A stretch of DNA of 64,000 nt from Escherichia coli (GTDB lineage: Bacteria; Pseudomonadota; Gammaproteobacteria; Enterobacterales; Enterobacteriaceae), in the NCBI RefSeq assembly GCF_024223415.1, contig NZ_CP100500.1, one strand, 5' to 3'. The translations under genes were made by a program, and so were the position numbers. The notes beneath the pieces were generated by a model that saw only the letters and a list, made by a program, of their open reading frames with translations, was not told where the DNA came from and did no database searches. Positions within the stretch are counted from its first letter, which is position 1. The number at the start of each line of letters is the position of its first letter. Below, piece by piece: positions 1 through 29,317 of the stretch.

Positions 1-235
1 GACGACATCAGCCGCTCCCACAGCCAGCAACTGAGAGTAACGAATATAGCTGTTATCCCGAAGCCATATCAGCGTATCAATAAAATACCGGCACTTTTTC
101 TGATCGTGATCAACCTGGTCCGGGATATCGAAAAAACCAGAATAAATCAAAACCTGAGGAGCCGGATGCGTGTTCAGTAATCGGCAGAATATTTTGCCGG
201 TGAGTACATAAAAATCATCATTTAAGGAGTGCATC

Positions 236-5545: not shown

Positions 5546-5555
5546 GGAGGGAAAC

Positions 5556-13052: not shown

Positions 13053-13060
13053 GGATCACG

Positions 13061-14194: not shown

Positions 14195-14206
14195 AGAGGG
14201 TTCAAC

Positions 14207-16111
14207 GTGGAAAAGCAGTTTGATGTGATATGCATGGGCCGCGTGGCGGTAGACCTCTACAGCCAGCAAATTGGTGCCCGCCTGGAGGATGTGTCGAGCT
14301 TCGCCAAATATCTCGGCGGCTCGTCCGGCAACGTGGCGTACGGTACCGCGCGTCAGGGCTTACGCTCGTCAATGCTGGCGCGCGTTGGCGATGAACATAT
14401 GGGGCGCTTCCTGCGGGAAGAGTTAAACCAGGTGGGCTGCGATACCAGCCATCTGATCACCGATAAAGAACGCCTTACGGCGCTGGTGCTACTCGGCATT
14501 AAAGACCGGGACACCTTTCCTCTGATTTTTTATCGCGATAACTGCGCGGATATGGCGATTACTGCCAGCGATGTGGACGAAAGCTACATTGCCTCCGCAC
14601 GGTGTATTGCCATCACCGGGACTCACCTTTCTCACCCGCAGACCCGCGAGGCGGTGCTGACGGCGCTGAATTACGCCCGCCGTCACGGCGTGCGCACGGT
14701 GCTGGACATCGACTACCGTCCGGTGCTGTGGGGACTAACCTCTCTAGGAGACGGCGAAACGCGTTTTATCGTTGCCGAACAGGTTACCCGTGAACTTCAG
14801 GAGGTGCTACACCTTTTCGACGTCGTTGTCGGCACCGAAGAGGAGTTTCACATTGCGGGGGGCAGCACCGATACGTTGCAGGCGCTGGCGCAGGTGCGCC
14901 ACGTCAGCAAGGCGACACTGGTTTGCAAGCGCGGCGCGCTGGGCTGTTCGGTGTATACCGATGCCATTCCACCTCGGCTGGATGACGGTCTGACGGTGAC
15001 CGGCGTGCGTGTGGAGGTGCTTAACGTCCTTGGCGCGGGAGATGCGTTTATGTCTGGCCTGCTGCGCGGTTACCTGAACGACGAGGGCTGGGAGCAGGCG
15101 TGCCGCTACGCCAACGCCTGTGGGGCGCTGGTGGTCTCGCGCCACGGCTGTGCACCGGCGATGCCGAGCAAAATTGAGCTGGATGATTACCTCTCCCGCG
15201 CCGCGCTCGTTCCGCGCCCGGACATTGACCCGCGTCTTAACCATCTGCACCGGGTGACCACCCGCCGCCGCGAATGGCCGGAGCTGTGCGTGATGGCGTT
15301 CGATCACCGCAGTCAACTGGAAGATATGGCGCTGCAGTGCGGCGCGTCGCTTAAGCGTATTCCGGCGCTGAAACAGCTGATCCTGCAGGCCAGCCGAGAG
15401 GCGGCAAGCTCTGCCGGGCTGGAGGGGAAAGCCGGCCTGCTGTGCGATGGCACCTTTGGTCAGGATGCGCTGAACGCCATTACCGGCGAAGGGTGGTGGA
15501 TTGGTCGTCCCATTGAACTGCCAGGCTCGCGTCCGCTGGAGATGGAGCACGGTAACATTGGTACCCAGCTTATCAGTTGGCCGCAGGAGCATGTGGTGAA
15601 GTGCCTGGTCTTTTTCCATCCGGAAGATGCCCACGGCTTGCGTCTGGAGCAGGAGCAGAAAATCGCCGAGGTGTACCACGCCTGCTGTCAGTCCGGACAT
15701 GAACTGCTGCTGGAGGTGATATTACCCGCCACTATGCCGCGCAGTGACGAACTTTATCTGCGTGCCATTTCCCGCTTCTACAACCTTGGCATTTACCCCG
15801 ACTGGTGGAAACTGCCGCCGCTCTCCGCCGAAGGCTGGACGGCACTGAGCGAGATTATCGCGCGCCGGGACCCGCACTGCCGCGGCGTGGTGATCCTCGG
15901 TCTGGATGCTCCGGCGGAACAGCTGCGTGCCGACTTCAAAGCTGCCGCGGGGCAGGCGCTGGTGAAAGGCTTCGCCGTGGGGCGCACGCTGTTTGGCGAT
16001 GCCTCCCGCGCATGGCTGAAACACGATATTGACGATGCGCAGCTGGTGGCGCGCATCCGGGACAACTACCTGCAGCTTATCGCCTGGTGGCGCGAGCGCG
16101 GACACGCATAA
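14207..16111 (+). CDS. iolC: 5-dehydro-2-deoxygluconokinase (PfkB kinase fused to C-terminal aldolase-like domain)
   Basis: 634 aa; GTG start with GAAGAGGG RBS; PfkB motif GAGDAF; long C-terminal extension as in enterobacterial IolC. Confidence 0.75.
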   Translation: MEKQFDVICMGRVAVDLYSQQIGARLEDVSSFAKYLGGSSGNVAYGTARQGLRSSMLARVGDEHMGRFLREELNQVGCDTSHLITDKERLTALVLLGIKDRDTFPLIFYRDNCADMAITASDVDESYIASARCIAITGTHLSHPQTREAVLTALNYARRHGVRTVLDIDYRPVLWGLTSLGDGETRFIVAEQVTRELQEVLHLFDVVVGTEEEFHIAGGSTDTLQALAQVRHVSKATLVCKRGALGCSVYTDAIPPRLDDGLTVTGVRVEVLNVLGAGDAFMSGLLRGYLNDEGWEQACRYANACGALVVSRHGCAPAMPSKIELDDYLSRAALVPRPDIDPRLNHLHRVTTRRREWPELCVMAFDHRSQLEDMALQCGASLKRIPALKQLILQASREAASSAGLEGKAGLLCDGTFGQDALNAITGEGWWIGRPIELPGSRPLEMEHGNIGTQLISWPQEHVVKCLVFFHPEDAHGLRLEQEQKIAEVYHACCQSGHELLLEVILPATMPRSDELYLRAISRFYNLGIYPDWWKLPPLSAEGWTALSEIIARRDPHCRGVVILGLDAPAEQLRADFKAAAGQALVKGFAVGRTLFGDASRAWLKHDIDDAQLVARIRDNYLQLIAWWRERGHA

Positions 16112-17013
16112 TGGAGACGACAATGAGTGTACAACTGGGCATCAACCCGCTGACGTGGACGAACGATGATCTGCCTTCACTGGGCGCGGAGACATCTCTG
16201 GAGACCTGCCTGAGTGAAGGGAAAGAGGCCGGTTTTGCCGGCTTCGAACTGGGCAATAAATTCCCGAGAGAAGCGCGCCTGCTCGGCCCCATTTTGCAGC
16301 GCCACGACCTGCAGTTGGTCTCCGGCTGGTATTCCGGCCGCCTGTTGGAACGCAGTGTAGAGGACGAGATTGCTGCTGTGCAGTCGCATCTGACGCTGCT
16401 GCGAGAGCTGGGTGCAAAAGTACTGGTTTTTGCGGAAGTGAGTGGCTGCATTCACGGTGAGCAGCAGACGCCGGTTCACCTGCGCCCACGTTTCCCGCAG
16501 GAATGCTGGAAAGAGTATGGTGAGAAACTCACCGTGTTCGCCCGCTATACGCAGCAACAGGGGGTACAGATTGCTTACCACCATCATATGGGCACGGTGA
16601 TTGAGTCCGCTCAAGACGTGGACAACCTGATGCTCCACACGGGTGAGGAGGTTGGTTTACTGCTGGATACTGGCCACCTGACCTTTGCCGGGGCCGATCC
16701 GCTGGCGGTGGCACAGCGATGGGCATCGCGCATCAATCATGTTCACTGCAAAGATGTGCGCGCCGACGTGCTGGCGGACGTCAAAAACCGTAAAACCAGC
16801 TTCCTCGACGCGGTGCTGAGCGGCGTGTTTACCGTGCCGGGTGACGGCTGCGTGGATTATCCGCCGATTATGCAACTGCTGAAAACGCAGGATTATCACG
16901 GTTGGCTGGTGGTGGAGGCTGAACAGGACCCGGCGATCGCCCATCCGCTGACCTACGCCCGTCTGGGATATAACAATCTGAGCCGCCTGGCGCGCGACGC
17001 CGGGCTTATCTGA
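16111..17013 (+). CDS. iolE: sugar-phosphate isomerase/epimerase TIM-barrel protein (inosose dehydratase-like)
   Basis: start overlaps iolC stop (TAATG); N-terminal LGINPLTWTNDDLPSLG motif resembles IolE. Confidence 0.65.
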   Translation: METTMSVQLGINPLTWTNDDLPSLGAETSLETCLSEGKEAGFAGFELGNKFPREARLLGPILQRHDLQLVSGWYSGRLLERSVEDEIAAVQSHLTLLRELGAKVLVFAEVSGCIHGEQQTPVHLRPRFPQECWKEYGEKLTVFARYTQQQGVQIAYHHHMGTVIESAQDVDNLMLHTGEEVGLLLDTGHLTFAGADPLAVAQRWASRINHVHCKDVRADVLADVKNRKTSFLDAVLSGVFTVPGDGCVDYPPIMQLLKTQDYHGWLVVEAEQDPAIAHPLTYARLGYNNLSRLARDAGLI

Positions 17014-17022
17014 GGAGGTGAC

Positions 17023-17844
17023 ATGTCACGTCTGTTATCACGCTGGCAACAGCCGAACGCTGAGGGGCGGACTCAGTCTGTCACGCCGGAAAGCGCCGGA
17101 TGGGGATATGTTGGCTTTGAGGCCTATGAACTTGAGGAAGGGCAGCAACTGACGCTGCCCGCTGTCAGTGAAGAGCGCTGTCTGGTGCTGGTGGCCGGGC
17201 GCGCTTTCATCAGCACTCCTTCTGCACAGTTTATTGATATCGGGGAGCGGATGAGCCCGTTCGAGCGCATCAAACCTTGGGCGGTTTACGTCACCCCGCA
17301 GGAGGCAGTGCAGGTGAAGGCGCTGACGAAACTGGAGCTGGCAGTCTGTACCGCTCCGGGAAAAGGGACATACCCGACGCGGTTGATTGCACCTCAGGAT
17401 ATCGATGGCGAAGCGCGCGGTAACGGCCACAACCAGCGTTATGTGCATAATATTTTGCCGGAAGACAAGCCCGCTGACAGCCTGCTGGTCGTCGAGGTCT
17501 GGACCAACGAAGGCTGTACCAGTTCGTACCCGAGCCATAAACACGATACGAATAACCCGCCTCAGGAGAGCTATCTGGAGGAGACCTATTACCATCGCCT
17601 CAACCCGGAACAGGGGTTCTGCATGCAGCGGGTGTATACCGATGACCGCACACTTGATGAATGTATGGCGGTCTATAACCGTGACGTGGTCATGGTGCCG
17701 AAAGGGTACCACCCGGTGGCGACGATGGCCGGGTATGACAGTTATTACCTTAACGTGATGGCCGGACCAGTACGTAAATGGATATTCACCTGGGAAAAGG
17801 AACACTCATGGATAAACACAGAGTATTCTGCCATTTCTTTATAA
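17023..17844 (+). CDS. iolB: 5-deoxy-glucuronate isomerase-like protein
   Basis: 273 aa; family assigned from memory and from position after iolC/iolE. Confidence 0.6.
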   Translation: MSRLLSRWQQPNAEGRTQSVTPESAGWGYVGFEAYELEEGQQLTLPAVSEERCLVLVAGRAFISTPSAQFIDIGERMSPFERIKPWAVYVTPQEAVQVKALTKLELAVCTAPGKGTYPTRLIAPQDIDGEARGNGHNQRYVHNILPEDKPADSLLVVEVWTNEGCTSSYPSHKHDTNNPPQESYLEETYYHRLNPEQGFCMQRVYTDDRTLDECMAVYNRDVVMVPKGYHPVATMAGYDSYYLNVMAGPVRKWIFTWEKEHSWINTEYSAISL

Positions 17845-17885: not shown

Positions 17886-18588
17886 GTATAATATGACTCG
17901 ACAATGTTATTTCAAAGTCTGAGTGATGATTTTTCTCTCAGGCAGTATGTTCCTCAATAAGGATGAGAATGTATTCTGTTCATTGGCATATGCATTTATA
18001 TTCTAATGAGCTGAATTTTATAAAGGTTGTGGCTATTCTGGAGTATAAATATTTTTTTTCATTAGACATGAAAGTCTATATGATGGTGTATTAATATTTT
18101 TAGCAATTATGAACGGTTTGTCATGAACCAGTGACCAATTCGTTATGGTGGTGTGCGGTTATATGGTACCTGCTTATGGTGTTATGTTTTTGTCACGTTT
18201 TTGCTGGGGGGTAACATATGTATTGTTTATTTTATATGGTTTATTAAAAAGCTATGAACTCTTTTCAGAGTAATCTCTCACAGTTTTTTTTAATGTTTTA
18301 AAGTTGGTAGTGGTTTGTTATTTTATTTAACTATGTGTTCTTGAAAAAGAACAATGTTTTAAGTGTTGGTTTTTTATCCTTATGATTTTTTAAATGAACT
18401 ATTCAACAATTTACGCTGTGCTGTCCTACAGTTAAAGAGCGTTAATGTAATATCAAATGTAATTATTACGGACAGGCTGAAATCTGGTTGTGTACATCAG
18501 TTGGTGCAAAAAGGCTTATCAAAGTACTGAAATAATAGTAAGTACAATAATAATGATGAATATTGCTACATGGAGATTGGATTTGCCC

Positions 18589-19494
18589 CTATATTTCCAG
18601 ACACCTGTTATCACTTAACCCATTACTGGCTTGCTGCCGTAGATATTCCCGTGGCGAGCGATAACCCAGTGCACTATGCGGATGCCATTCGTTATAATGC
18701 TCGAACGCCTCTGCAAGGTTCTTTGCTGCCGTTAACCCGTCTGGTTTGGGCATGACACTGATGTAGTCACGCTTTATCGTTTTCACGAAGCTCTCTGCTA
18801 TGCCGTTACTCTCCGGACTCCGCACCGCCGTGCTCTTCGGTTCAAGCCCCAACATCCGGGCAAACTGCCGTGTTTCATTAGCCCGGTAGCATGAACCATT
18901 ATCCGTCAGCCACTCTACTGGAGACGCCGGAAGCTCGTTGCCGAAGCGGCGTTCCACCGCTCCTGGCATGACGTCCTGTACTGTTTCACTGTTGAAGCCG
19001 CCCGTAGTGACCGCCCAGTGCAGTGCCTCACGGTCACAGCAGTCCAGCGCGAACGTGACTCGCAGTTTTTCTCCGTTATCACAGCGGAACTCGAACCCGT
19101 CAGAGCACCATCGCTGATTACTTTCTTTCACAGCCACTCTGCCTGTATGTGCCCGTTTCGATGGCGGTACAGCAGGTTTTCGCTCAAGCAACAGCGCATT
19201 CTGGCGCATGATCCGGTAAACACGTTTGGCATTGATCGCAGGCATACCATCAAGTTCGGCCTGTCTGCGAAGCAGCGCCCATACCCGACGATAACCATAC
19301 GTGGGCAGCTCTCCGATAACATGGTGTATACGGAGAAGCACATCCGTATCATCAGTGTGACGACTGCGGCGGCCATCCATCCAGTCATCGGTTCGTCTGA
19401 GAATGACGTGCAACTGCGCACGCGACACCCGGAGACAACGGCTGACTAAGCTTACTCCCCATCCCCGGGCAATAAGGGCGCGTGCGCTATCCAC
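18589..19494 (-). CDS. insD: IS2 transposase ORFB (InsD)
   Basis: 301 aa DDE transposase, IS3 family. Confidence 0.9.
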
Positions 19495-19817
19495 TTTTTT
19501 GCCCGTCCATATTCAACGGCTTCTTTGAGGAGTTCATTTTCCATCGTTTTCTTGCCGAGCAGGCGCTGGAGTTCTTTAATCTGCTTCATGGCGGCAGCAA
19601 GTTCAGAGGCAGGAACAACCTGTTCTCCGGCGGCGACAGCAGTAAGACTTCCTTCCTGGTATTGCTTACGCCAGAGAAATAACTGGCTGGCTGCTACACC
19701 ATGTTGCCGGGCAACGAGGGAGACCGTCATCCCCGGTTCAAAGCTCTGCTGAACAATTGCGATCTTTTCCTGTGTGGTAAGCCGTCTGCGTTTCTCCGGT
19801 CCTAAGACATCAATCAT
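19452..19817 (-). CDS. insC: IS2 ORFA (InsC)
   Basis: track ORF trimmed to [12 protein letters not shown] start; 121 aa HTH protein. Confidence 0.85.
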
Positions 19818-20030
19818 CTGCTCTCCAATGACTAGTCTAAAAACTAGTATTAAGACTATCACTTAAATAAGTGATACTGGTTGTCTGGAGATTCAGGGGG
19901 CCAGTCTAGAGATATAAAGAGCGTCTAGCTCCGGATATATCTTTGACACTACGACAGTACTTGCAAAACGGGGTTGGTAATGCTGCCAACTTACTGATTT
20001 AGTGTATGATGGTGATTTTAAGGTGCTTGC

Positions 20031-20306
20031 GTGGCTTCCATTTCCATCAGATGTCCTTCCTGCTCCGCTACTGAAGGCGTGGTGCGTAACGGCAAAAGCA
20101 CTGCCGGACATCAGCGCTATCTCTGCTCTCATTGCCGTAAAACATGGCAACTACAGTTCACTTACACCGCCTCTCAGCCCGGTACGCACCAGAAAATCAT
20201 TGATATGGCCATGAATGGCGTCGGATGTCGCGCCAGTGCACGCATTATGGGCGTTGGCCTCAACACGGTTTTACGTCACTTAAAAAACTCAGGCCGCAGT
20301 CGGTAA
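20031..20306 (+). CDS. insA: IS1 InsA
   Basis: 91 aa, GTG start, CPSC...CSHC zinc finger. Confidence 0.9.
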
Positions 20307-20728
20307 CCTCGCGCATACAACCGGGCAGTGATGTGATTGTCTGCGCTGAAATGGACGAACAGTGGGGCTACGTCGGTGCTAAATCACGTCAGCGCTGGCT
20401 GTTTTACGCGTATGACAGGATACGGAGGACGGTTATGGCGCACGTATTCGGTGAACGCACTCTGGCCACACTGGAGCGTCTTCTGAGCCTGCTGTCGGCC
20501 TTTGACGTGGTGATATGGATGACGGATGGCTGGCCACTGTATGAATCCCGCCTGAAGGGAAAGCTGCACGTAATCAGCAAGCGATATACGCAGCGAATTG
20601 AGCGGCATAACCTGAATCTGAGGCAGCACCTGGCACGGCTGGGACGGAAGTCGCTGTCGTTCTCAAAATCGGTGGAGCTGCATGACAAAGTCATCGGGCA
20701 TTATCTGAACATAAAACACTATCAATAA
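20225..20728 (+). CDS. insB: IS1 InsB (expressed as InsAB' by frameshift)
   Basis: 167 aa; matches IS1 InsB. Confidence 0.9.
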
Positions 20729-20745
20729 GTTGGAGTCATTACCAG

Positions 20746-21432
20746 GAACGAGTACAGGAAAAATTCAGTTCTTTTTTAATTGCCTTTAAAGATGGTGTCA
20801 TCGGAGGGATACTGTCAGGTATTACCACAACGCTGTTAAATATATTCCTGACGACGGAAAGAATGATTGTCCGGCTTATCAGGGAAATGTGGAACAACCT
20901 CGTTCAGGCCTTTAAAGTCCTGGTATTTAACCCGGAGGGATTATCGCCGGGGCAGTTAGCCAAAGCGGTCACTAAACTGATAGCAGCAGGTGTGGCTGTT
21001 GCCGGTGGGGTGATGATAAATGAGGCGATGGCGCAGATCCTTATTTTTCCATTTGGTTCAGAGCTTGCTGCCTTTTGTGGTGCGCTGACGACAGGTATTC
21101 TCGGGCTGGTGATGAATTATTATCTCGAATATAGCGAGGTTATGCAGCGGGTATGGGCATTTCTGGACAAATTTAAGGACAAATTCCAGCGGTCACTGGA
21201 ATACTTTCAGGCAGTCAATGCTGAACTTGATCGCTATCTTGTGGAACTTACTGCACTGGAATTTTCTGTTGATGCTGCCGCGTTAAATCATTTTTCACTT
21301 CATCTGGATAGCGTAAACAGTGAGATAGAGCGCGGACTTCTGCTGAGAGAAGAAGTCAGCCGACGAGGGATTGCGTTGCCGTTTGAGTCAGGAAATGTGG
21401 CTTCTGTTCGTGACTGGTTAAATAAGCGATGA
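20746..21432 (+). pseudogene. 5'-truncated ORF of unknown protein, interrupted by IS1
   Basis: reading frame is open from inside the IS1 right end through to the stop at 21432; first ATG only at 20863. Confidence 0.4.
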
Positions 21433-21695
21433 AATTACACCCTCCATTTCCCTGTAACCAGTGTGGGGCCTGTTGTCGTCATGTCAACAGGGCGGGTGAA
21501 ACGCAATGTCTGGATCGTGGTGACGGTATTTGCCGTCACTATCAGACTGATTCTCATTTGTGTGCAATTTATGATAAACGCCCACAGATTTGCCGGGTTG
21601 AAGACCAGTATTTACTGAATTATCAGTCTCAGTACAGCTGGCAGGAGTTTATTGCATTAAACCAGGCCGCCTGCCTTATTCTGAATAAACTGTAA
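21429..21695 (+). CDS. YkgJ-family cysteine-cluster (CxxCxxCC) protein
   Basis: CNQCGACC ... C..C ... C motif. Confidence 0.65.
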   Translation: MKLHPPFPCNQCGACCRHVNRAGETQCLDRGDGICRHYQTDSHLCAIYDKRPQICRVEDQYLLNYQSQYSWQEFIALNQAACLILNKL

Positions 21696-21834
21696 TGCCA
21701 TTAATGGCGGCGTCAGGACAGAAACTGAGAGAACATAAAACAGTAAAATGTCATTCCGTTCAGCAGCCAGCGTTGCTTTCTCCGGCTGCTGTTATTGTAA
21801 GGCATTTTCGTTAAGAACGCAGAAGGAGAGGATC

Positions 21835-22032
21835 GTGAGATTGCTGTTAAAAGGGCTCGTCGGAATGGCGCTGGTCTGGCTTGTTATTGGTTTCGGGATG
21901 GAGTTATTTTTTCTCGCCGATCGGGTTCATCCGGCATTAAGAGTAATCGTTGGCCTGGGGATGTTATTCCTGATGATAATGATTGCGGGTGGTATGTGCG
22001 GTTCTCTTCTGTCACGAAAGAAAACATCATGA
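21835..22032 (+). CDS. small inner-membrane protein (65 aa)
   Basis: track ORF 21748..22032 trimmed to GTG with GAAGGAGAGG RBS; two hydrophobic helices. Confidence 0.4.
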   Translation: MRLLLKGLVGMALVWLVIGFGMELFFLADRVHPALRVIVGLGMLFLMIMIAGGMCGSLLSRKKTS

Positions 22033-22166
22033 CGTTCCTGTTTACGCCGTTACATTTGTGGCGGCGGATGATACCTGTTTTATGATTATTCAGAAAAATG
22101 TATTTACCTGTCACGGCATGTTCAGCGAGCGGCGCCGGACAGAAATATCGCTTTTACTCAATTATT

Positions 22167-23771
22167 ATGAAAATTAATCTTCCATTCATACACTGGCCAC
22201 GGATTAGCAATGATAAGCGCCTCGTGTTATCAGTGGTTGTCTTTATCCTTTTTAATCTCCTTGTATCCTCAGGAGCGCATCTGATTTACCGGATATTATT
22301 CTTTATCCTGGCGCTTCTTATTATTAAGGCAATGAAATCGCTTACGTTGCGTTTGATTCTTGCCTTCCCGTTCACATTACTGACTGCTGCAGATATCAGT
22401 ATCAGCCTGTATTCATGGTGTACATTTGGCACAACATTTAATGATGGTTTTGCAATCAGTATCCTTCAGACAGATCCTGATGAAGTAATAAGAATGTTCA
22501 GGATGTATGTTGTTTATGTTATCGCATTTATTATCCTCTTTTTATTGTTCTTCTGTTCAGCAATAAATAAAACGTCCTCATTGCCATCGGAAAAGGTCAC
22601 GGTAATTACATTTTTATTGTTAATTACAGTAACGTTATATTCTTCCTTCCAGTTTGCGTTGAAGAAACAGTATCAAATAAATGAAGTTGATCCTTACATA
22701 GTCGCTTCCCGGTTTGCCACATATACCTCTTTCTTTAATCTGAACTATTTTGCACTGGCCGCAAAGGAGCATCAGAGATTAATGACGATTGCTGATACCA
22801 TACCTCACTACGATCTGGTGATTACGGATAACAACACTGACGTATTTGTTCTGGTGATTGGTGAATCTGCAAGGACTGATAACATGTCCATTTACGGGTA
22901 TTCGCGCCCTACCACACCAGAGCTTCAGAAACAGAAATCACGACTGAAACTGTTCACTCAGGCAATCAGCGGGGCACCTTATACCGCTCTTGCGGTACCG
23001 CTGGCATTATCTGCTGATACCGTGCTGCATCATGATGTTCGCCGTTACCCCGATAATATTATCAACATGGCGAATCAGGCGGGGTTCGATACCTGGTGGC
23101 TCAGTGCGCAGTCCGCTTTCCGACAGAACGGAACGGCTGTGGCCAGTATCGCCATGCGGGCCAGAAACAGAATTTATGTCAGAGGCTATGATGAATTACT
23201 GCTCCCACACCTGGCTGAAGCACTGAACAGTAATCCGGGGAGCAGGAAACTGATTGTTCTGCATCTGACGGGCAGCCATGAGCCAGTCTGCAGTAACTGG
23301 CCCAGAGATAAAGCCGTGTTTAAACCGCTGGATACAGAAGAAGTCTGCTACGATAATTCCATTCATTATACCGACAGTTTGTTGGGACAGGTTTTCACCA
23401 TGCTGGAAACGCGTCAGGCATCCGTCATGTATTTTTCAGATCATGGCCTGGAGTATGACCCGACAAAAGAGCATGCCTATTTTCATGGCGGAATAAAACC
23501 CAGCCAGCAGGCTTATCATGTTCCGATGTTTATCTGGTACAGCCCGGCACTGGGAGAGCATGTCGATCGCCAGACGGTGAACAGCGTTTTTTCCACTGCG
23601 TATAATGATTATCTGATTAATGCATGGATGGGCGTAACCAGACCGGCTCAACCGAAAACGCCGGAGGAGGTGATTACCCGCTGGCAGGGGAAATCCGTGG
23701 TTTTTGATGCCAGTCATAACGTGTTTGATTACAAAGTATTACGAAAGAACTTTAATGAACTCCAGGAATAA
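22167..23771 (+). CDS. phosphoethanolamine transferase-like membrane protein (EptA/OpgE-type sulfatase domain)
   Basis: about 5 N-terminal TM helices plus sulfatase-like domain (VIGESARTDNMSIYGYSRPTTP, LHLTGSHEP); start chosen at MKINLPF, alternative 22098. Confidence 0.7.
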   Translation: MKINLPFIHWPRISNDKRLVLSVVVFILFNLLVSSGAHLIYRILFFILALLIIKAMKSLTLRLILAFPFTLLTAADISISLYSWCTFGTTFNDGFAISILQTDPDEVIRMFRMYVVYVIAFIILFLLFFCSAINKTSSLPSEKVTVITFLLLITVTLYSSFQFALKKQYQINEVDPYIVASRFATYTSFFNLNYFALAAKEHQRLMTIADTIPHYDLVITDNNTDVFVLVIGESARTDNMSIYGYSRPTTPELQKQKSRLKLFTQAISGAPYTALAVPLALSADTVLHHDVRRYPDNIINMANQAGFDTWWLSAQSAFRQNGTAVASIAMRARNRIYVRGYDELLLPHLAEALNSNPGSRKLIVLHLTGSHEPVCSNWPRDKAVFKPLDTEEVCYDNSIHYTDSLLGQVFTMLETRQASVMYFSDHGLEYDPTKEHAYFHGGIKPSQQAYHVPMFIWYSPALGEHVDRQTVNSVFSTAYNDYLINAWMGVTRPAQPKTPEEVITRWQGKSVVFDASHNVFDYKVLRKNFNELQE

Positions 23772-23867
23772 TTCATTAAAGTAATTTACTTCGCTATCCT
23801 TTTTCCAGTTACTCACAAAGAAAAATATTCAGAAAATAATTCCCGGGTTGGCAGCCCGGGATGATTA

Positions 23868-24143
23868 CTATTTTAATGGATTGTTAATCTTTGCATATTC
23901 AAACGGGCTGATACATTGTTCTCTGTTCGCATCCAGAAAATCTGCCCACCACTGTAGCATCAGTCGACGTTCTTCCAGATGTTCTGCTTTATGGATATAC
24001 GCAGCACGTACACCATTACGCTCCTGATGACTCATCTGACGTTCCACTGCATCGCGGGACCACAAACCTGATTTAATCAATGCACTGCACGCCATCGCCC
24101 GGAATCCATGGCCACAGACCTCTTCCTGCGTATTGTATCTCAT
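23868..24143 (-). pseudogene. 3' remnant of a P4-family tyrosine integrase (C-terminal ~90 aa only)
   Basis: GHGFR...RAAYIH...MLQWWADFLD aligns with the C-terminus of the intact integrase at 27068..28252; 5' two-thirds absent. Confidence 0.75.
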
Positions 24144-24451
24144 CAGTCTCAGTGCGTTATTGACCGTATTTTAACTAACGAGCTTGTGCCTGATTACCAA
24201 TAATTATCAGTTCATATTTTATGCAGACTTGTGCCAATCACTTGTTTTGAAAGAGGTTCTAAGATTCGTTGCATGCATTCTTGACCCTCAATGGTAATGT
24301 CTCGTTAAATATGATAGATATTAGCCGTAATTTTATTTTAGCGGGGTCGGTAAATTGGGGTGGAATTAGTCGATAAAAATATTAGAATACACTATTTTGC
24401 AGGCAAAATAGTGATATGATACATTTTTGTGTAAATTTATAAGGAGATAAG

Positions 24452-25375
24452 ATGGATAAGTTAAGGGCGCTAATTAGCCGAGCATCTAAGCTTTATAACA
24501 GGAATATAGATCATCTTCCAATAACTTTAGAACTAATCGAGTATTCAATGGGGCTTTTGGATAAGAAAGCAAGTTACGGTTATTTTGGTTCATTTGAAGG
24601 GAAAAAAGAAATAGACTACTATGCATTCTTTAGTAATAACGAGATCTCAAGACCTATTAGAGATGATTTATATATCAGAGATGTAAGTATCTATAAGAAA
24701 TTAAGTGACAACTTGTTTGTCGATTTAAAACAGTTCCGTTCTGTCTGGAGTTCAGATAAATCAATAGTAGCAAATAAAATTATATATACATCAGTTATGT
24801 CAGTTGCCTGCGCTTTTGATTTGTGGAAGAAAGGTAGTAGAAAAACACCTGGTACATTTTTTGAGATTTATATTGCTGCTCTATTGAAAGTAATGCTTCC
24901 GAATGAAGTTTTTTCAAAGCATATCCCATTGATTGATTCGATGAAAAATGATGAGGGGCTTAGAGATTCGGCGAATATTTCTACTGATCTGGTAATAAAA
25001 AGCCGCGCAAATGTTAATCGCGGAGTAGTTATCCCATTAAAAATAACAACAAGAGAGCGTATTGTTCAGCCATTTGCTCATCAACGAATTCTGGATTCAT
25101 ATTTTGGGAATGGTTTTTTTCATTCTTTCTTGGCATGCATTAGTGAAACTCAACAAGATAAGTTTAATCGAGAAGTAAACCATATATGTGTTCCTGGAAC
25201 AATACGATTGTATCAGAAATATTTATCAAGTATTGCGGGAATATATTATTGTGATATTCCAGAGAGATATTTACAAGCTGATTTGACCAGTATAATACCG
25301 GTCAAATCAATGGGGGAGTTTTTGTCAGATATAAATGATTTTTTTATGGAAATAGCTGAATCTGATCCTCATTAG
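24452..25375 (+). CDS. unknown 307-aa protein convergent with the C5-methyltransferase; putative Type II restriction endonuclease
   Basis: strong RBS (TAAGGAGATAAG); very AT-rich; 3' end overlaps the MTase 3' end by 32 bp; no nuclease motif recognised by eye. Confidence 0.45.
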   Translation: MDKLRALISRASKLYNRNIDHLPITLELIEYSMGLLDKKASYGYFGSFEGKKEIDYYAFFSNNEISRPIRDDLYIRDVSIYKKLSDNLFVDLKQFRSVWSSDKSIVANKIIYTSVMSVACAFDLWKKGSRKTPGTFFEIYIAALLKVMLPNEVFSKHIPLIDSMKNDEGLRDSANISTDLVIKSRANVNRGVVIPLKITTRERIVQPFAHQRILDSYFGNGFFHSFLACISETQQDKFNREVNHICVPGTIRLYQKYLSSIAGIYYCDIPERYLQADLTSIIPVKSMGEFLSDINDFFMEIAESDPH

Positions 25376-26468
25376 TCTTCTCAACAGGGTTTTGATAGTT
25401 GCTTTTTTCATAATTTTGTTTATTAAGACATTTAATAATTGCTGTTCCTGCCGCTTTAGCTACTGGCGGCGGAACAGCATTCCCAATTTGTAATCTTATG
25501 GCATCTCTTTTACCATAAAACCGATAGTCAACAGGGAATCCTTGTAACATTGCACCCTCTCTAAGAGTTATAGCTCTGTTCTGAGAAGGATGTCCATATC
25601 TGCCTCTGGTGAAGCTATCAAATCCCGCAGTAATTGTTGGACATTGTTTATCCCATTCAAGCCTCCCGTACACGTCAGGCCATCCGCCGGAGTTAGTATC
25701 AACATTTTGATGGCATTTTAGTCTCAAATCATGCGGAATATCCTTCCACCCCCCTCCGGGGGGAACATAAGAGAACCTTTCTTCATTAAGTTTAGTTATT
25801 TTACACTTAATATGATTAGGTATCTCGCAATGTTCACTATAATCGTCAGGAGGGGGAGGAAGATTACCAATAACATCTTTGATAGTAAGTTCGTTATCAA
25901 CTTTCTCCAGTTTAGGATAATCGCAGTTCTCAGATTTATCTATTCCGATCATAATAAAGCGCCCTCTCTTCTGGGCAACGCCAAAATCTGAAGAGCAAAT
26001 GAAAAAAGTGAATATGTTATATTTAAATAATTTCTCTTTTACTTCTCTTATTAAATCCTGTCCTCTCTTTTGTCCAAAAATTTCGACATTTTCAAACAGA
26101 AAAGCCCGGGGGTTTAGCTCATTTACCAGTCTGGAATATTCCAGTACTAACTTATTTCTTTCATCATTTAACAGATGAGCTCCTTTTCTTTGTTTGGAAA
26201 AGCCCTGACATGGCGGCCCGCCGCTAAAAAGATCCAGTCGGGAGTTTATTCCCGCTTTGTCTAAAAGAAACTTACCGCTAATAACCGAAGCATCTAATTG
26301 AAGACAATGCCCTCCAAGATTATTATTATATGTTTTCACGGCATCCTCATTGATATCAAATGCTAATTTGATATCGAACCCCGCTTGCTTAAGCCCAAGG
26401 GACATTCCTCCAGCACCACAGAAGCCTTCAATGCATGTAAGTTTTTGAACAGTATCAGCTTTACTCAT
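25344..26468 (-). CDS. DNA cytosine-5 methyltransferase
   Basis: motif I FCGAGG, motif IV PPCQGFS, motif VI ENV, motif VIII QKRGRF, motif X GNAVPPP. Confidence 0.9.
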   Translation of the reverse strand: MSKADTVQKLTCIEGFCGAGGMSLGLKQAGFDIKLAFDINEDAVKTYNNNLGGHCLQLDASVISGKFLLDKAGINSRLDLFSGGPPCQGFSKQRKGAHLLNDERNKLVLEYSRLVNELNPRAFLFENVEIFGQKRGQDLIREVKEKLFKYNIFTFFICSSDFGVAQKRGRFIMIGIDKSENCDYPKLEKVDNELTIKDVIGNLPPPPDDYSEHCEIPNHIKCKITKLNEERFSYVPPGGGWKDIPHDLRLKCHQNVDTNSGGWPDVYGRLEWDKQCPTITAGFDSFTRGRYGHPSQNRAITLREGAMLQGFPVDYRFYGKRDAIRLQIGNAVPPPVAKAAGTAIIKCLNKQNYEKSNYQNPVEKTNEDQIQLFP

Positions 26469-27067
26469 GTTAACTCACTTAATGCTCATTAATCTTCCTA
26501 GTATAACGATATTTATCAAACAAAACCATAGCTACATTTTAAACTAAAAGTAGCTAATAAGAACGATTGAATGACTTAATTTATATAAATAAGATATCCA
26601 GTATTGATACATCATGTGTTCAGCATGATGTATGTGCAACTGAAGCATCATTCGAAGTTTTCCTCAATATTCATATTCTGCATATATGCTATTCCAGATA
26701 ACTGGCCTGCCATTCGATATTATGACGAAGCCTGATTATGCTAATGCATCATACGCTATAACCCGGTATTTATGGCCACAGATATTTTGGATTGTGTCAT
26801 CTCCTGTAACCTTAAGGGGGGGATTGACGGTGTTTTATCTGCTTGCCCTGTGAGTACATGCATTTCCATAACATTCAGGCTATTTTCACCTACCGGAATC
26901 TGAAGTTCAGTCAGTATGCCTGCAACCTGTTTATGGTGTTGAACAGGGTTCAATAGCAGAATTTGGGCTTCTGGAGTGAGTTCAGAATGTGTTGGTAAAT
27001 CAAGCCACAATAAAACCGTTCAGTGGTCTGACTGGATGGCTCGTTATTATATCCACAGAGCTCTCAT

Positions 27068-28252
27068 TTATAGTGCGCACCTGGAGAGCGAATCAATGTA
27101 ATCTGCGTACCATTGCATCATTTCACGACGACCATCCAGGTACTGCGCATGGTTATAGGTACCCCTGATGGAATTTTTATCCACATGAGCTAACTGCATT
27201 TCAATCCAGGCAGAATTAAAGCCCTGTTCGTGCAGAATGGTACTCATGGTGTGACGAAAACCATGACCGGTTGCCCTGCCATCGTAACCGATACGTTTGA
27301 GCACCATATTGATGCTGGCTTCGCTCATTGGCTTGTTGATATCACAACGTCCCGGAAAAACCAGCCGGTATTGCCCGGAGAAAGTTTTGAGCTGCAGCAG
27401 AATGTCAGTGGCCTGTCGTGACAGTGGTACGACATGTTTACGTCGCATTTTCATGCGGCTTTCAGGGATTGTCCACAGGGCATTATCAAAATCAATTTCT
27501 GACCATTCAGCGAACCGTAGCTCAATGGTTCTGAGACCTGTCAGAAGCAGAAGATTTGTCGCCATGCGGGTAACAGGACTGCCATGATATTCAGCGAGCT
27601 TCCGGATAAAAGCTGGGAGCTCATCTGCTCTCAGGTGAGGGAAATGCGCCGCTTTTGGTGCCGCCAGTGTACTGGTCAGTTCAGATGCCGGATTGACAGT
27701 GGCTCGTCCGGTGGCGATGGCATAACGAAAAATCTGATTACAGTATTGGCGTACCTTACGAAGTTTCTCCAGCGAGCCACGTTTTTCTATGCGGCGCAGA
27801 ATTTCCAGCATTTCCAGCGGGAGGATATCAGTAACGCTTCGTTTGCCCAGATACGGAAAAATATCTTTATCCAGAGCCTCCAGTACGCTTCTGGCGTAAC
27901 TTTCAGACCATGACAAAGATTTATGCTGGTGCCATTCCGTAGCGAGGGCATGGAACGTATTGGTGGCAGAGATTTTCTGAGTGAGTTTTTCCTTTCGCTT
28001 CTTTTCGCCCGGGTCACCACCTTCGGAGATGATTTTTCGGGCATCGTCGCGTTTGATTCTGGCCTCAGCAAGGGAGACGTCGGGATAGACGCCGAGGGCC
28101 AGTTTTTTCTCTTTTCCTGCTATCCGGTATTTAAGCCGCCAGTAGCGGGCTCCCGTGGTTTTTACCAGCAGATATAAACCACGTTCGTCAGAGAGTTTAT
28201 AGTCTTTTTCTTTAGGTCTGGCTGTTTCGACCTGTCTGGCTGTAAGTGCCAT
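27068..28252 (-). CDS. P4-family tyrosine integrase (site-specific recombinase)
   Basis: 394 aa from MALTARQVETA; C-terminal HGFRHT...Y catalytic region; adjacent to tRNA-Phe 3' end. Confidence 0.9.
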   Translation of the reverse strand: MALTARQVETARPKEKDYKLSDERGLYLLVKTTGARYWRLKYRIAGKEKKLALGVYPDVSLAEARIKRDDARKIISEGGDPGEKKRKEKLTQKISATNTFHALATEWHQHKSLSWSESYARSVLEALDKDIFPYLGKRSVTDILPLEMLEILRRIEKRGSLEKLRKVRQYCNQIFRYAIATGRATVNPASELTSTLAAPKAAHFPHLRADELPAFIRKLAEYHGSPVTRMATNLLLLTGLRTIELRFAEWSEIDFDNALWTIPESRMKMRRKHVVPLSRQATDILLQLKTFSGQYRLVFPGRCDINKPMSEASINMVLKRIGYDGRATGHGFRHTMSTILHEQGFNSAWIEMQLAHVDKNSIRGTYNHAQYLDGRREMMQWYADYIDSLSRCAL

Positions 28253-28320
28253 ATGGGGGCTCCTGAAACTGACTGAACACAATGAGCCCCCACCGGTGCC
28301 CCCAATGAACGCTTGATTGA

Positions 28321-28410
28321 GAGAGAGTTCAGTAGAGTTCGGTGGAGTTCAGGATGTTCAGATTGCTTGTAACGATGTGATTATACTTGAGTTTCGTGGA
28401 GTTCGGGAGA
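28321..28410. repeat. cluster of 4-5 direct GAGTTC(A/G)G repeats between integrase and tRNA (possible arm-type recombinase-binding sites)
   Basis: GAGTTCAG, GAGTTCGG, GAGTTCAGG, GAGTTCGGG within about 90 bp. Confidence 0.4.
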
Positions 28411-28428
28411 TGAATCTGGAAGTGAAAG

Positions 28429-28504
28429 TGGTGCCCGGACTCGGAATCGAACCAAGGACACGGGGATTTTCAATCCCCTGCTCTACCGACTGAGCTATCC
28501 GGGC
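28429..28504 (-). tRNA. pheV: tRNA-Phe (anticodon GAA)
   Basis: reverse complement reads GCCCGGATAGCTCAGTCGGTAGAGCAGGGGATTGAAAATCCCCGTGTCCTTGGTTCGATTCCGAGTCCGGGCACCA, 76 nt with CCA end; flanked by yqgA-speC. Confidence 0.95.
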
Positions 28505-28609
28505 AACGGGGCGAATTAAACCTGATTCGCCTCGTCTCGTCAATCAAATTTCTTCAATTTACTGCAGACTGCACAATCTATCATCACTTTGCCGCTATTG
28601 CACGCATTG

Positions 28610-29317
28610 TCAGGCAAACCAGGCGGTCCAGGCGGCGGAAAGCGGCATTGCCAGAAGGAGTGCTGGAAGCATGTTGACCACCGGGAACATTTTAATGCCA
28701 CAGATGCGTAATCCGGTTGCCAGCAGCAATAAACCGCCTACGGCGCTGAAGTCTGCCATCATCGACGGTGTGGTCAGCGGTAATATCAGCGCGGCAGCCC
28801 ACGCCAGCGTTAACTGGATGATCAGTAATGGGATACTAATCACCGATACCGCAATACCCAGCGAGCAGGCGAAGATCATCGCCGTAAAGAAATCAAGAAA
28901 TGACTTGGCGATTAAAATACTCGGATCGCCGGTCATCCCTTCGTTCATCGCCCCGAAGATCCCGGTGCCGCTGGCGCAAAACAGGACAATAATCGCGACA
29001 TAATTCTGAATAAAAGATTCATGCGCTGGCTTCTTACGTGAGTGACGAAACAGATTTTGTGCTTTGGCGACCGCTGTATTGACGCCTTTCTCCAGCAGAC
29101 AAATTTCGCCGATTAATGCTCCGAGTAAGGTTGCTAAAACCATCGCTGGAAGGTTGGCGCATTTCACCACCAGTAAAATACCAATCCCCAGCGATGCCAG
29201 ACCAAAAATTGATGTCATGGAGACGCGGATACGTTCCGGTAAGCGTTGGCTAAGCAGTGCACCGAGCATGCCACCCAGTAATATTGCACTTGCGTTGATA
29301 AAAGGGCCGATGACCAC
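28610..29317 (-). CDS. yqgA: DUF554-family inner-membrane protein YqgA
   Basis: 235 aa polytopic membrane protein; conserved position next to pheV. Confidence 0.85.
   Translation of the reverse strand: MVIGPFINASAILLGGMLGALLSQRLPERIRVSMTSIFGLASLGIGILLVVKCANLPAMVLATLLGALIGEICLLEKGVNTAVAKAQNLFRHSRKKPAHESFIQNYVAIIVLFCASGTGIFGAMNEGMTGDPSILIAKSFLDFFTAMIFACSLGIAVSVISIPLLIIQLTLAWAAALILPLTTPSMMADFSAVGGLLLLATGLRICGIKMFPVVNMLPALLLAMPLSAAWTAWFA

What the first reader, a model, noticed from the sequence alone, without database searches (positions are those of the whole stretch)
21429..23771. Envelope-modification cassette: YkgJ-type cysteine-cluster protein, small membrane protein and EptA-like phosphoethanolamine transferase
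Three same-strand genes in lower-GC DNA encode a CxxCxxCC protein, a 65-aa membrane peptide and a ~534-aa sulfatase-superfamily membrane transferase of the kind that adds phosphoethanolamine to lipid A, LPS core or glucans. On an island this could alter surface charge, with consequences for cationic-peptide resistance or phage adsorption.
Basis: partly seen in the sequence, partly recalled or inferred. Interest (0 to 1): 0.5.

Follow-up and report, generated by a model that had tools for sequence, protein, structure and literature searches.

The report
Island YhbX-like transferase beside decapitated defence module
The three genes are real but are not one cassette: an intact, already-annotated YhbX-type phosphoethanolamine transferase and its small membrane peptide form the fixed edge of an E. 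coli tRNA-Phe island, while the cysteine-cluster gene is the orphaned last gene of a four-gene candidate phage-defence module that an IS1 element cut off.

Summary
All three ORFs exist at the stated coordinates, in lower-GC DNA (0.446 against 0.51). The large gene is a sulfatase-fold phosphoethanolamine (PEtn) transferase, and the residues aligned to the NmEptA catalytic set are all retained. It is 65% identical to E. coli core YhbX, whose acceptor is unknown. It falls far below the curated EptA, MCR and CptA cut-offs. By position it is the counterpart of "orf5" of the ETEC tia locus.

The "cassette" splits into two units.
- **YkgJ-type gene:** it overlaps the upstream 523-aa gene by 4 bp. It travels with WYL regulator, ~355-aa and ~523-aa genes in Shewanella, and with a WYL-headed variant in Acinetobacter. 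No sulfatase gene is nearby in any case. In this window IS1 has removed everything upstream of about codon 294 of the 523-aa gene.
- **65-aa ORF plus transferase:** these form a conserved flank. Between it and a tia/Ail-like outer-membrane protein gene, other genomes carry the WYL module, leoCBA (Eleos), BnzAB (Bunzi) or nothing.

An island PEtn transferase is present. A three-gene unit and a lipid A/polymyxin role are not supported. The gene is already annotated in hundreds of genomes, so interest is low.

The parts
18578..19908 (-). IS2-like insertion sequence (orfA 19452-19862, orfB 18589-19494). It lies 67 bp from IS1, so it is part of the rearrangement that removed the 5' half of the module.
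   Evidence: ORFs. Terminal sequences read. The IS2 identification rests on recognising the InsC/InsD sequences from my own knowledge, not on a tool.
19976..20742 (+). IS1 (insA 20031-20306, insB' 20225-20728). Its right inverted repeat abuts the interior of the 523-aa gene.
   Evidence: Sequence. Homology to the intact locus L001 begins exactly at 20742.
20743..21432 (+). 3' remnant (last 229 codons) of the 523-aa 'B' gene of the WYL-A-B-YkgJ module. The His-Me/HNH-like N-terminal domain is missing. The mechanical ORF with an ATG start is 20863-21432.
   Evidence: 98% identity to L001 12001 onward. Full-length B matches PADLOC PDC-M40B at 5.6e-43. H111, N140 and N149 are invariant in 40 homologues.
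21429..21695 (+). YkgJ-type CxxCxxCC protein, 88 aa, intact, with 8 invariant Cys. It is the last gene of the upstream module and is orphaned here.
   Evidence: Its neighbourhoods are shown.
21835..22032 (+). 65-aa two-segment membrane peptide (GTG start). It is the first gene of the conserved flank, and its detected homologues are almost all from E. coli (none named from another genus).
   Evidence: (dN/dS 0.31).
22167..23771 (+). YhbX-clade PEtn transferase, 534 aa (the RefSeq-style start at 22098 gives 557 aa). It has an N-terminal multi-pass membrane domain and a periplasmic sulfatase-fold domain. In 557-aa numbering the catalytic residues are E256, T296, H394, D448, H449 and H463.
23868..24185 (-). 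3' fragment (residues ~316-420) of the P4-type integrase that belongs to this island type.
   Evidence: 90% aa identity to the L001 integrase.
24452..26468 (.). Type II restriction-modification pair: REase 24452-25375 (+) and C5-cytosine methyltransferase 25344-26468 (-). It lies between integrase fragments and is not part of the finding.
   Evidence: PADLOC REase_II 6.5e-132. NCBIfam dcm 1.4e-42.
27071..28282 (-). Complete integrase of a different allele (43% aa identity to the L001 type), next to tRNA-Phe.
28429..28504 (-). tRNA-Phe (GAA), the island's attachment site.

Best explanation
The stretch holds two unrelated units that sit side by side on a decayed tRNA-Phe island.

Unit 1 (20743-21695) is the tail of a four-gene operon: WYL regulator, a ~355-aa Gly-rich membrane/coiled-coil protein 'A', a 523-aa protein 'B' with a His-Me/HNH-like head and a helical membrane tail, and an 88-aa eight-cysteine YkgJ-type protein. 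This operon is a horizontally mobile candidate anti-phage module. In this window IS1, with IS2 beside it, has removed the regulator, A and the first ~294 codons of B. The intact YkgJ gene is therefore an orphan, and any transcription would have to read through from IS1.

Unit 2 (21835-23771) is a 65-aa membrane peptide gene followed by a YhbX-clade phosphoethanolamine transferase. From family knowledge, I infer the following mechanism. The transferase is an inner-membrane enzyme with a periplasmic sulfatase-fold domain. That domain takes phosphoethanolamine from phosphatidylethanolamine onto Thr296 at a Zn site formed by E256, D448 and H449. It then passes the group to an envelope acceptor. 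The acceptor is unknown. It is more likely a core-sugar or periplasmic-glucan type acceptor than the lipid A phosphates.

Unit 2 is the conserved edge of a slot that holds alternative membrane-associated defence cargo in different strains. It is not a partner of YkgJ.
For: Shown:
- Homology to the intact locus runs exactly from 20742 to 24176, starting at the IS1 end. No other part of the module is found in the window.
- The intact locus reads WYL-359-523-YkgJ-65aa-PEtn-int-tRNA-Phe. YkgJ overlaps B by ATGA.
- PADLOC scores are WYL 6e-22, A = PDC-M09A 3.9e-23 and B = PDC-M40B 5.6e-43.
- Homologues of B at 43%, 39% and 37% identity are followed, directly or after one gene, by homologous CxxCxxCC proteins.
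- Shewanella carries WYL-357-523-YkgJ with the same 4-bp overlap, beside DarT/Macro and an integrase. Acinetobacter carries WYL-504-273-334-YkgJ. No sulfatase gene occurs in any of these loci.
- Homology between the leoCBA context and the window resumes at the GTG of the 65-aa ORF.
- The same slot holds BnzA/BnzB (8e-189 and 2e-201) in L014, and is empty at pheU in L015.
- Junction counts among 5426 E. coli genomes are 443 YkgJ-linked, 73 leoA-linked and 1 Bunzi-linked.
- Transferase: Sulfatase 1.7e-49, 65% identity to YhbX, catalytic residues aligned to NmEptA E240/T280/H383/D452/H453/H465, and dN/dS of 0.19.

Inferred: the enzymatic mechanism, the donor lipid, and the defence role of the module.
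Against: - No promoter-like site on the + strand was found upstream of unit 2, and no terminator-like site between YkgJ and the 65-aa ORF. In intact loci the transferase may therefore be co-transcribed with whichever cargo lies upstream, so transcriptional linkage is not excluded.
- The defence function of WYL-A-B-YkgJ rests only on PADLOC candidate models and on neighbourhood. Neither has been validated experimentally. No paper mentions PDC-M40 or PDC-M09.
- The window copy carries P188S (534-aa numbering) in the otherwise invariant RFATYTPFFNLNYF motif, so the enzyme could be impaired.
- The acceptor is not determined by anything done here.
Confidence: 0.8

Rival explanations
1. One reading: YkgJ, the 65-aa peptide and the transferase form one envelope-modification operon. 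YkgJ would act as a metal or redox accessory of the transferase.
For: The genes share a strand and are closely spaced. No terminator-like site was found between them. They co-occur in 443 E. coli genomes.
Against: YkgJ overlaps the upstream gene by 4 bp. It is conserved with A and B across genera, with no sulfatase gene present. The transferase and peptide occur without YkgJ. The core paralogue YhbX has no YkgJ neighbour.
Confidence: 0.04
2. The transferase is an EptA/MCR-type lipid A modifier that lowers surface charge and raises polymyxin or cationic-peptide resistance.
For: It has the same superfamily fold and catalytic residues. NCBIfam's generic 'phosphoethanolamine--lipid A transferase' domain model is the top hit.
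Against: That hit is 165 bits against a cut-off of 500. E. coli-type EptA scores 99 against 660, and the MCR families 37-71 against at least 1075. The nearest relative is YhbX (65% identity), for which no LPS role is reported in the papers found. The best solved-structure match is EptC, a core-heptose enzyme, and not MCR-1.
Confidence: 0.1
3. Everything between IS1 and the integrase fragment is silent, decaying island debris. The transferase is intact only because too little time has passed for it to degrade.
For: Both neighbours are truncated. No promoter-like site was found upstream. The window copy carries P188S in an invariant motif. Compared with the 99.8%-identical copy in strain E5, the transferase shows 4 non-synonymous and 0 synonymous differences. 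Copies in other strains are frameshifted or cut by IS elements.
Against: The 534-codon frame is open and the catalytic residues are intact. Across diverged copies dN/dS is 0.18-0.25 for the transferase and 0.31 for the peptide, so the family is under purifying selection. IS1 is oriented so that it could read through into the remnant. The 4:0 ratio does not differ significantly from neutral expectation. The damaged copies were picked because their matches were partial, so they are a biased sample.
Confidence: 0.25
4. The transferase and the 65-aa peptide work together with whichever membrane-directed defence cargo fills the slot. For example, they might alter the envelope so that the cargo senses or survives phage attack, or they might block adsorption.
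For: Orientation is the same, and no terminator was found in the one junction scanned (the window's), behind three different membrane-associated cargoes. PHROGs contains distant PEtn-transferase-like phage families.
Against: All three cargo types occur elsewhere without a sulfatase gene (Michie 2014, PMC4159319, notes that tia and orf5 are not conserved with leoABC). The flank also occurs with an empty slot.
Confidence: 0.08

Closest known systems
E. coli YhbX (b3173), a putative PEtn transferase of unknown acceptor
   Same: 65% amino-acid identity over 93% of the length. Same architecture and same catalytic residues. The N-terminus aligns to M24 of the long ORF.
   Different: YhbX is a core gene lying between argG and leuU, with no upstream small ORF. 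The window gene is an island-borne paralogue preceded by an essentially E. coli-restricted 65-aa membrane ORF.
orf5 of the tia locus/PAI of ETEC H10407 (tia-leoC-leoB-leoA-orf5)
   Same: In L003 the gene directly downstream of leoA is the 94%-identical copy of this transferase, with the same 65-aa ORF. Michie 2014 describes a five-gene tia locus ending in orf5.
   Different: In the window's island type the leoCBA position is occupied by WYL-A-B-YkgJ, truncated here. The equation with orf5 is by position only, because the original Fleckenstein 2000 paper could not be read.
EptC/CptA, EptA and MCR PEtn transferases (solved: EcEptC 5zzu, NmEptA 5fgn, MCR-1)
   Same: Sulfatase fold, the Thr nucleophile, the Glu/Asp/His zinc ligands and both extra histidines all align.
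   Different: Phmmer scores against the solved chains are only 89, 87 and 56 bits. The protein is below every curated NCBIfam cut-off. The acceptor specificity cannot be transferred.
PADLOC candidate systems PDC-M09 / PDC-M40, and the validated Eleos (LeoA/LeoBC) and Bunzi (BnzAB) systems
   Same: The upstream module's A and B proteins match PDC-M09A and PDC-M40B. The module occupies the same slot as Eleos and Bunzi. A, BnzA and LeoBC give weak cross-hits (E about 1e-3) over a Gly-rich membrane segment.
   Different: The module combines an M09A-like and an M40B-like protein with a WYL regulator and a YkgJ protein. It is untested experimentally. In the window only the last 229 codons of B and the YkgJ gene survive.
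YkgJ / CxxCxxCC family (Pfam PF03692, putative Zn- or Fe-chelating domain)
   Same: The CxxCxxCC motif is present, and eight Cys are invariant across 29 homologues.
   Different: The Pfam match is weak (E=0.0011). The high-confidence AF2 model (pLDDT 94) has no solved-structure neighbour. This subfamily is tied to the A/B module and not to any envelope enzyme.

Membership tests
PEtn transferase superfamily (EptA/EptB/CptA/MCR/YhbX) | Periplasmic sulfatase/alkaline-phosphatase-fold domain | tested here: met
   Pfam Sulfatase 1.7e-49, residues 250-497. PDB sequence matches to EptC, NmEptA and MCR-1.
PEtn transferase superfamily (EptA/EptB/CptA/MCR/YhbX) | Thr nucleophile plus Zn ligands (NmEptA E240, T280, D452, H453) and H383/H465 | tested here: met
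   E256, T296, D448, H449, H394 and H463 align in 557-aa numbering.
PEtn transferase superfamily (EptA/EptB/CptA/MCR/YhbX) | N-terminal multi-pass membrane domain | tested here: inconclusive
   The hydropathy window merges overlapping hydrophobic segments, consistent with about five, between residues 16 and 165. Pfam EptA_B_N reaches only E=0.099.
PEtn transferase superfamily (EptA/EptB/CptA/MCR/YhbX) | Transfers PEtn from phosphatidylethanolamine to an envelope acceptor | not testable with these tools
   This needs mass spectrometry or an enzyme assay.
Lipid A PEtn transferases (EptA / MCR-1..13) | Reaches the curated NCBIfam family cut-off | tested here: not met
   EptA PRK11598 scores 99 against 660. 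H. pylori-type EptA scores 137 against 561. MCR families score 37-71 against at least 1075.
CptA/EptC (heptose-phosphate PEtn transferase) | Reaches the curated NCBIfam family cut-off | tested here: not met
   142 against 404, and 127 against 900.
YhbX clade | Close full-length sequence similarity to E. coli YhbX | tested here: met
   65% identity, 93% coverage, E about 1e-229.
YhbX clade | Orthologous position (argG-yhbX-leuU) | tested here: not met
   The window gene sits on the tRNA-Phe island. It is therefore a paralogue, not the orthologue.
YkgJ / CxxCxxCC (PF03692) | CxxCxxCC motif and further conserved Cys | tested here: met
   C9, C12, C15, C16, C35, C45, C55 and C82 are invariant. Pfam E=0.0011.
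Three-gene envelope-modification cassette (as proposed) | The three genes co-occur as a unit across contexts and taxa | tested here: not met
   YkgJ occurs with A and B but without the transferase. The transferase occurs without YkgJ.
WYL-A-B-YkgJ candidate defence module (PDC-M09A/PDC-M40B-like) | All four genes present and intact | tested here: not met
   In the window only the last 229 codons of B and the YkgJ gene remain.
WYL-A-B-YkgJ candidate defence module (PDC-M09A/PDC-M40B-like) | Protects against phage | not testable with these tools
   Only candidate HMM matches and defence-island neighbourhoods are available.

The most novel reading that the evidence does not exclude
The conserved pair (65-aa membrane peptide plus YhbX-like PEtn transferase), together with the tia/Ail-like outer-membrane protein gene, frames a dedicated intra-island slot. 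That slot exchanges membrane-directed anti-phage systems: Eleos, Bunzi and the untested WYL-A-B-YkgJ module. In this reading the transferase contributes to the shared function, for example by modifying the envelope to affect phage adsorption or the membrane state that these systems monitor. It would not provide cationic-peptide resistance. A corollary is that WYL-A-B-YkgJ is a new defence system in which an eight-cysteine YkgJ protein is an obligatory subunit.
Probability: 0.1. Interest if true: 0.6.

Novelty: already known. Interest (0 to 1): 0.2.

Why it matters
As proposed, the finding matters little. The transferase is an annotated accessory gene present in about 13% of complete E. coli genomes. 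It belongs to a clade with no known acceptor and has no link to polymyxin resistance.

The useful outcomes are corrective:
- YkgJ should not be read as an envelope-modification partner.
- The annotated 557-aa start is probably 23 codons too long.
- RefSeq names such as 'cobalamin adenosyltransferase' for the upstream 523-aa gene got no support from the NCBIfam and Pfam scans run here.

Beyond the window there is a modest lead. The tia-to-transferase interval behaves as a swap site for Eleos, Bunzi and an untested WYL/membrane/His-Me/YkgJ module. That gives a natural set of isogenic contexts for testing both the module and the function of the YhbX clade.

Tried and rejected
- **Structure of YkgJ:** the AF2 model is confident (pLDDT 94), but Foldseek against the PDB found nothing (best E=8.9). 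No mechanistic clue.
- **Pfam on B:** only a sub-threshold GmrSD_C hit at residues 89-174 (E=0.15). I use it only as a hint alongside the invariant H111/N140/N149.
- **Rfam scan of 19800-28700:** only the tRNA was found.
- **Promoter and terminator scan:** the number of hits was no higher than in shuffled sequence. No + strand promoter was found upstream of either unit.
- **Literature:** no paper mentions PDC-M40 or PDC-M09. No function for YhbX was found. Fleckenstein 2000 (PMC97486) is not held. Hochhauser 2023 does not mention pheV, yqgA or PEtn transferases.
- **Ancient island-remnant idea for core yhbX:** I considered that yhbX next to leuU might mirror the island arrangement. I rejected this because the orientation relative to the tRNA is opposite and there is no small ORF.
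- **att repeat:** I searched the window for a second copy of the tRNA-Phe 3' end and found none within 2 mismatches. The far end of the island therefore lies outside the window.
- **Phages and plasmids:** the gene is not on phages (at most 32% identity). Only one plasmid-labelled record carries it at 93%. The other hits at 60% or above are 4.8-4.9 Mb chromosome-sized records (one is 354 kb) matching at the yhbX level of ~65% identity.
Full report
**1. Observation**

The ORF list shows three + strand ORFs in the stated interval.
- 21429-21695 encodes 88 aa with the motif CNQCGACC.
- 21748-22032 contains the 65-aa frame that RefSeq annotates, with a GTG start at 21835.
- 22098-23771 encodes 557 aa, with an internal Met at 22167 that gives 534 aa.

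GC over 21429-23771 is 0.446. The core-like right half of the window is 0.512. The ORFs are not chance frames.
- The large one matches Pfam Sulfatase at 1.7e-49 and the NCBIfam PEtn-transferase domain model at 2.1e-48.
- The 88-aa protein matches Pfam CxxCxxCC weakly (E=0.0011). It has homologues with eight invariant cysteines in several genera.
- The 65-aa frame shows dN/dS of 0.31 over 29 substitutions against a diverged copy, and it has two hydrophobic segments.

**2. Where this is**

The window carries tRNA-Phe at 28429-28504, with an integrase beside it. A megablast of 20700-24400 against 5426 complete E. coli genomes finds the stretch in 341 genomes at 80% coverage or better, and the listed best matches lie next to a tyrosine recombinase. 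In strain WS4437A-1 (locus L001) the intact arrangement is:

tia, WYL-type HTH regulator (298 aa), 359-aa protein, 523-aa protein, YkgJ (88 aa), 65-aa ORF, PEtn transferase, integrase, tRNA-Phe, yqgA, speC.

A direct blastn of that locus against the window shows homology from exactly 20742 to 24176 and nowhere else, apart from the tRNA flank and a short diverged (68.5%) integrase-fragment hit at 26753-26931.
- The left edge is the right inverted repeat of an IS1 copy (19976-20742), with an IS2-like element 67 bp further left.
- The right edge lies inside the integrase gene.

The window therefore lacks the regulator, the 359-aa gene and about the first 294 codons of the 523-aa gene.

**3. The 'cassette' is two units**

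Four lines of evidence separate them.

(a) The YkgJ start codon overlaps the stop of the 523-aa gene (ATGA). In contrast, 139 bp separate YkgJ from the 65-aa ORF.

(b) In the selC tia island (L003), leoC, leoB and leoA fill the interval between tia and the transferase. Sequence similarity to the window is absent upstream and resumes at the GTG of the 65-aa ORF (query position 404; alignment columns from about 195; annotation; ORF).

(c) In L014 the same interval holds two genes that match PADLOC BnzA (8e-189) and BnzB (2e-201). These are followed by an 87%-identical transferase. At pheU in strain EC571 (L015) the interval is empty, and the order is Ail/Lom OMP, small ORF, frameshifted transferase, integrase, tRNA-Phe.

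(d) Starting from the other side, representatives of the 523-aa family at 43%, 39% and 37% identity are each followed by a clearly homologous CxxCxxCC protein of 84-102 aa. Each also has a ~335-367-aa partner protein next to it (two have the same Gly-rich N-terminus).
- YkgJ homologues in Shewanella (67% identity) sit in WYL-357-523-YkgJ with the same 4-bp overlap, next to DarT/Macro genes and an integrase.
- Those in Acinetobacter (55-57% identity) sit in WYL-504-273-334-YkgJ, in islands that also carry restriction genes.
- None of these loci contains a sulfatase-fold gene.

YkgJ is thus a conserved component of the upstream module (its last gene in E. coli, Shewanella and Acinetobacter). The 65-aa ORF plus transferase is an independent, conserved flank.

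Junction counts among the 5426 genomes are as follows:

| Junction type | Genomes |
|---|---|
| YkgJ-linked | 443 |
| leoA-linked | 73 |
| Bunzi-linked | 1 |

**4. The transferase**

Its nearest relatives are island copies at 87-95% identity. After those comes E. coli core YhbX at 65% identity over 93% of the length.

*Family scores.* It reaches no curated NCBIfam cut-off:

| NCBIfam model | Score (bits) | Cut-off (bits) |
|---|---|---|
| Generic PEtn domain | 165 | 500 |
| CptA | 142 | 404 |
| EptA | 99 | 660 |
| MCR families | 37-71 | at least 1075 |

*Catalytic residues.* Alignment to solved structures places these residues opposite the NmEptA catalytic set (557-aa numbering on the left):
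- E256 with E240
- T296 with T280
- H394 with H383
- D448 and H449 with D452 and H453
- H463 with H465

*Selection.* dN/dS among diverged island copies is 0.18-0.25.

*Start codon.* The 23 codons upstream of M24 evolve with dN/dS of about 1-2. They are absent from the 87% copy and from YhbX. The 534-aa product is therefore the likely one.

*Window-specific change.* The window copy has one private substitution, P188S in 534-aa numbering. It falls in the motif RFATYTPFFNLNYF, which is invariant in the eight other copies compared (four island loci, three more distant database homologues and YhbX). Its effect is unknown.

*Location.* The gene is chromosomal. It is not on phages, where identity is at most 32%. 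Only one plasmid-labelled record carries it at 93% identity.

*Literature.*
- YhbX has no established function (PMC4013655).
- Island insertions at pheU, pheV and selC in STEC all carried YjgX- or YhbX-like transferases (PMC6174562).
- The ETEC tia locus is described as tia, leoC, leoB, leoA and orf5. The authors note that orf5 is not conserved with leoABC in other bacteria (PMC4159319).
- By position in L003, orf5 is this transferase.

**5. The small ORF**

It is conserved in three contexts: the window type, the leo type and the empty pheU type. The C-terminal ~50 residues are nearly invariant. It is missing upstream of the 87% copy in L014 and upstream of core yhbX. All named homologues detected are from E. 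coli (many hits are unnamed metagenome entries), at 78% identity or more. No family model matches it.

**6. The upstream module**

In intact loci the PADLOC matches are WYL (6e-22), PDC-M09A for the 359-aa protein (3.9e-23) and PDC-M40B for the 523-aa protein (5.6e-43). An alignment of 40 family representatives shows invariant H111, N140 and N149 within a DLDHxxSxKEIHDD...NL...S.N.SK stretch. A sub-threshold GmrSD_C hit covers the same region. I read this as a His-Me/HNH-like nuclease head. That reading is an inference.

RefSeq names for this protein include 'cobalamin adenosyltransferase' and 'coiled-coil domain-containing protein 22'. NCBIfam and Pfam give no support for them.

In the window only the helical tail (229 codons) and YkgJ survive, so the module cannot be functional as a system.

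**7. Mechanism and confidence**

Shown:
- the gene content
- the truncation point
- the modular boundaries
- conservation of the catalytic residues

Inferred from family knowledge of the EptA/MCR/EptC enzymes: the transferase sits in the inner membrane, forms a PEtn-Thr296 intermediate from phosphatidylethanolamine at a zinc site, and transfers it to a periplasm-facing acceptor. The acceptor is unknown. I rate a lipid A target as unlikely (about 0.1) and non-expression or decay as a serious alternative (about 0.25). The defence role of WYL-A-B-YkgJ is also inferred. It rests on candidate HMMs, on sharing a slot with Eleos and Bunzi, and on neighbours such as DarTG, restriction-modification genes and integrases.

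**8. Verdict**

It is wrong about the three-gene unit and is unsupported on lipid A or polymyxin.

The transferase and its neighbours are already annotated in hundreds of genomes, and the transferase corresponds by position to orf5 of a locus described in 2000. I class the finding as already known, with low interest (0.2). The only lead with some novelty lies outside the window's intact content. It is the exchangeable slot between tia and the transferase, together with the untested YkgJ-containing module.

Noticed in passing
window 24452-26468: A type II restriction-modification pair: a REase matching PADLOC REase_II at 6.5e-132, and a convergent, overlapping C5-cytosine methyltransferase (NCBIfam dcm 1.4e-42). 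GC is 0.365. No E. coli complete genome of 5426 covers more than 36% of 23700-28600, and the matched parts are integrase, tRNA and transferase. This cargo appears absent from that collection.
   Followed up: partly
window 23868-24185, 26586-26932, 27071-28282: Three integrase pieces lie in series next to tRNA-Phe. One is a complete 404-aa gene with 43% identity to the L001-type integrase. The second is a decayed fragment covering residues ~288-399. The third is the last ~105 codons of the L001-type integrase at 90% identity. This suggests repeated accretion and decay of islands at this tRNA. No second att copy occurs in the window.
   Followed up: partly
L001 7881-15030; L003 2729-9928; L014 1644-7638; L015 7965-10901: The interval between a tia/Ail-like OMP gene and the YhbX-like transferase holds different content in different genomes: WYL-A-B-YkgJ, leoCBA (Eleos), BnzAB (Bunzi) or nothing. 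It behaves like an intra-island swap site for membrane-associated defence systems. A, BnzA and LeoBC models give weak cross-hits (E about 1e-3).
   Followed up: partly
L018-L020 3378-7267; L021-L023 2685-7273: The WYL-A-B-YkgJ module occurs in Shewanella next to DarT/Macro (DarTG-like) genes, a KwaA-like gene and an integrase. A five-gene variant occurs in Acinetobacter islands that also carry restriction genes. B has invariant H111, N140 and N149. YkgJ has eight invariant Cys and a confident AF2 fold with no PDB neighbour.
   Followed up: partly
window 22728-22730 (codon 188 of the 534-aa frame): P188S is the only residue private to the window's transferase. It falls in the RFATYTPFFNLNYF motif, which is invariant in all the other compared copies, including YhbX. 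Compared with the 99.8%-identical copy in strain E5, the gene shows 4 non-synonymous and 0 synonymous changes.
   Followed up: partly
window 22098-22166: RefSeq-style annotation starts the transferase 23 codons upstream of the conserved Met. These codons show dN/dS of about 1-2 and are absent from the 87% copy and from YhbX. The annotated 557-aa start is probably wrong.
   Followed up: yes
L003 10070-11113; L005 12487-13521: Other strains carry a ~345-aa tetratricopeptide-repeat protein between the transferase and the integrase, where this window has the integrase fragment and the restriction-modification genes. This is a second variable spot. The TPR protein has no PADLOC match.
   Followed up: no
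window 12024-17844: A high-GC block (0.56-0.63) encodes a sugar ABC permease, a levoglucosan/inositol-dehydrogenase-like enzyme, the IolC-type kinase/aldolase fusion, IolE and IolB. This is a myo-inositol catabolism cluster carried on the same island.
   Followed up: no
window 644-1408 and 3776-6722: A Dam-family adenine methyltransferase (NCBIfam subfamily model, 116.8 bits against a cut-off of 114.85). Also a 589-aa DDE transposase-like ORF followed by a 397-aa AAA-type ATPase-like ORF, which looks like a TniA/TniB-like pair.
   Followed up: no
L001 9994-12691 and equivalents: RefSeq product names for the module's A and B proteins vary between records: 'chemotaxis protein', 'cobalamin adenosyltransferase', 'ATP--cob(I)alamin adenosyltransferase', 'coiled-coil domain-containing protein 22' and 'hypothetical protein'. 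None is supported by NCBIfam or Pfam scans.
   Followed up: yes
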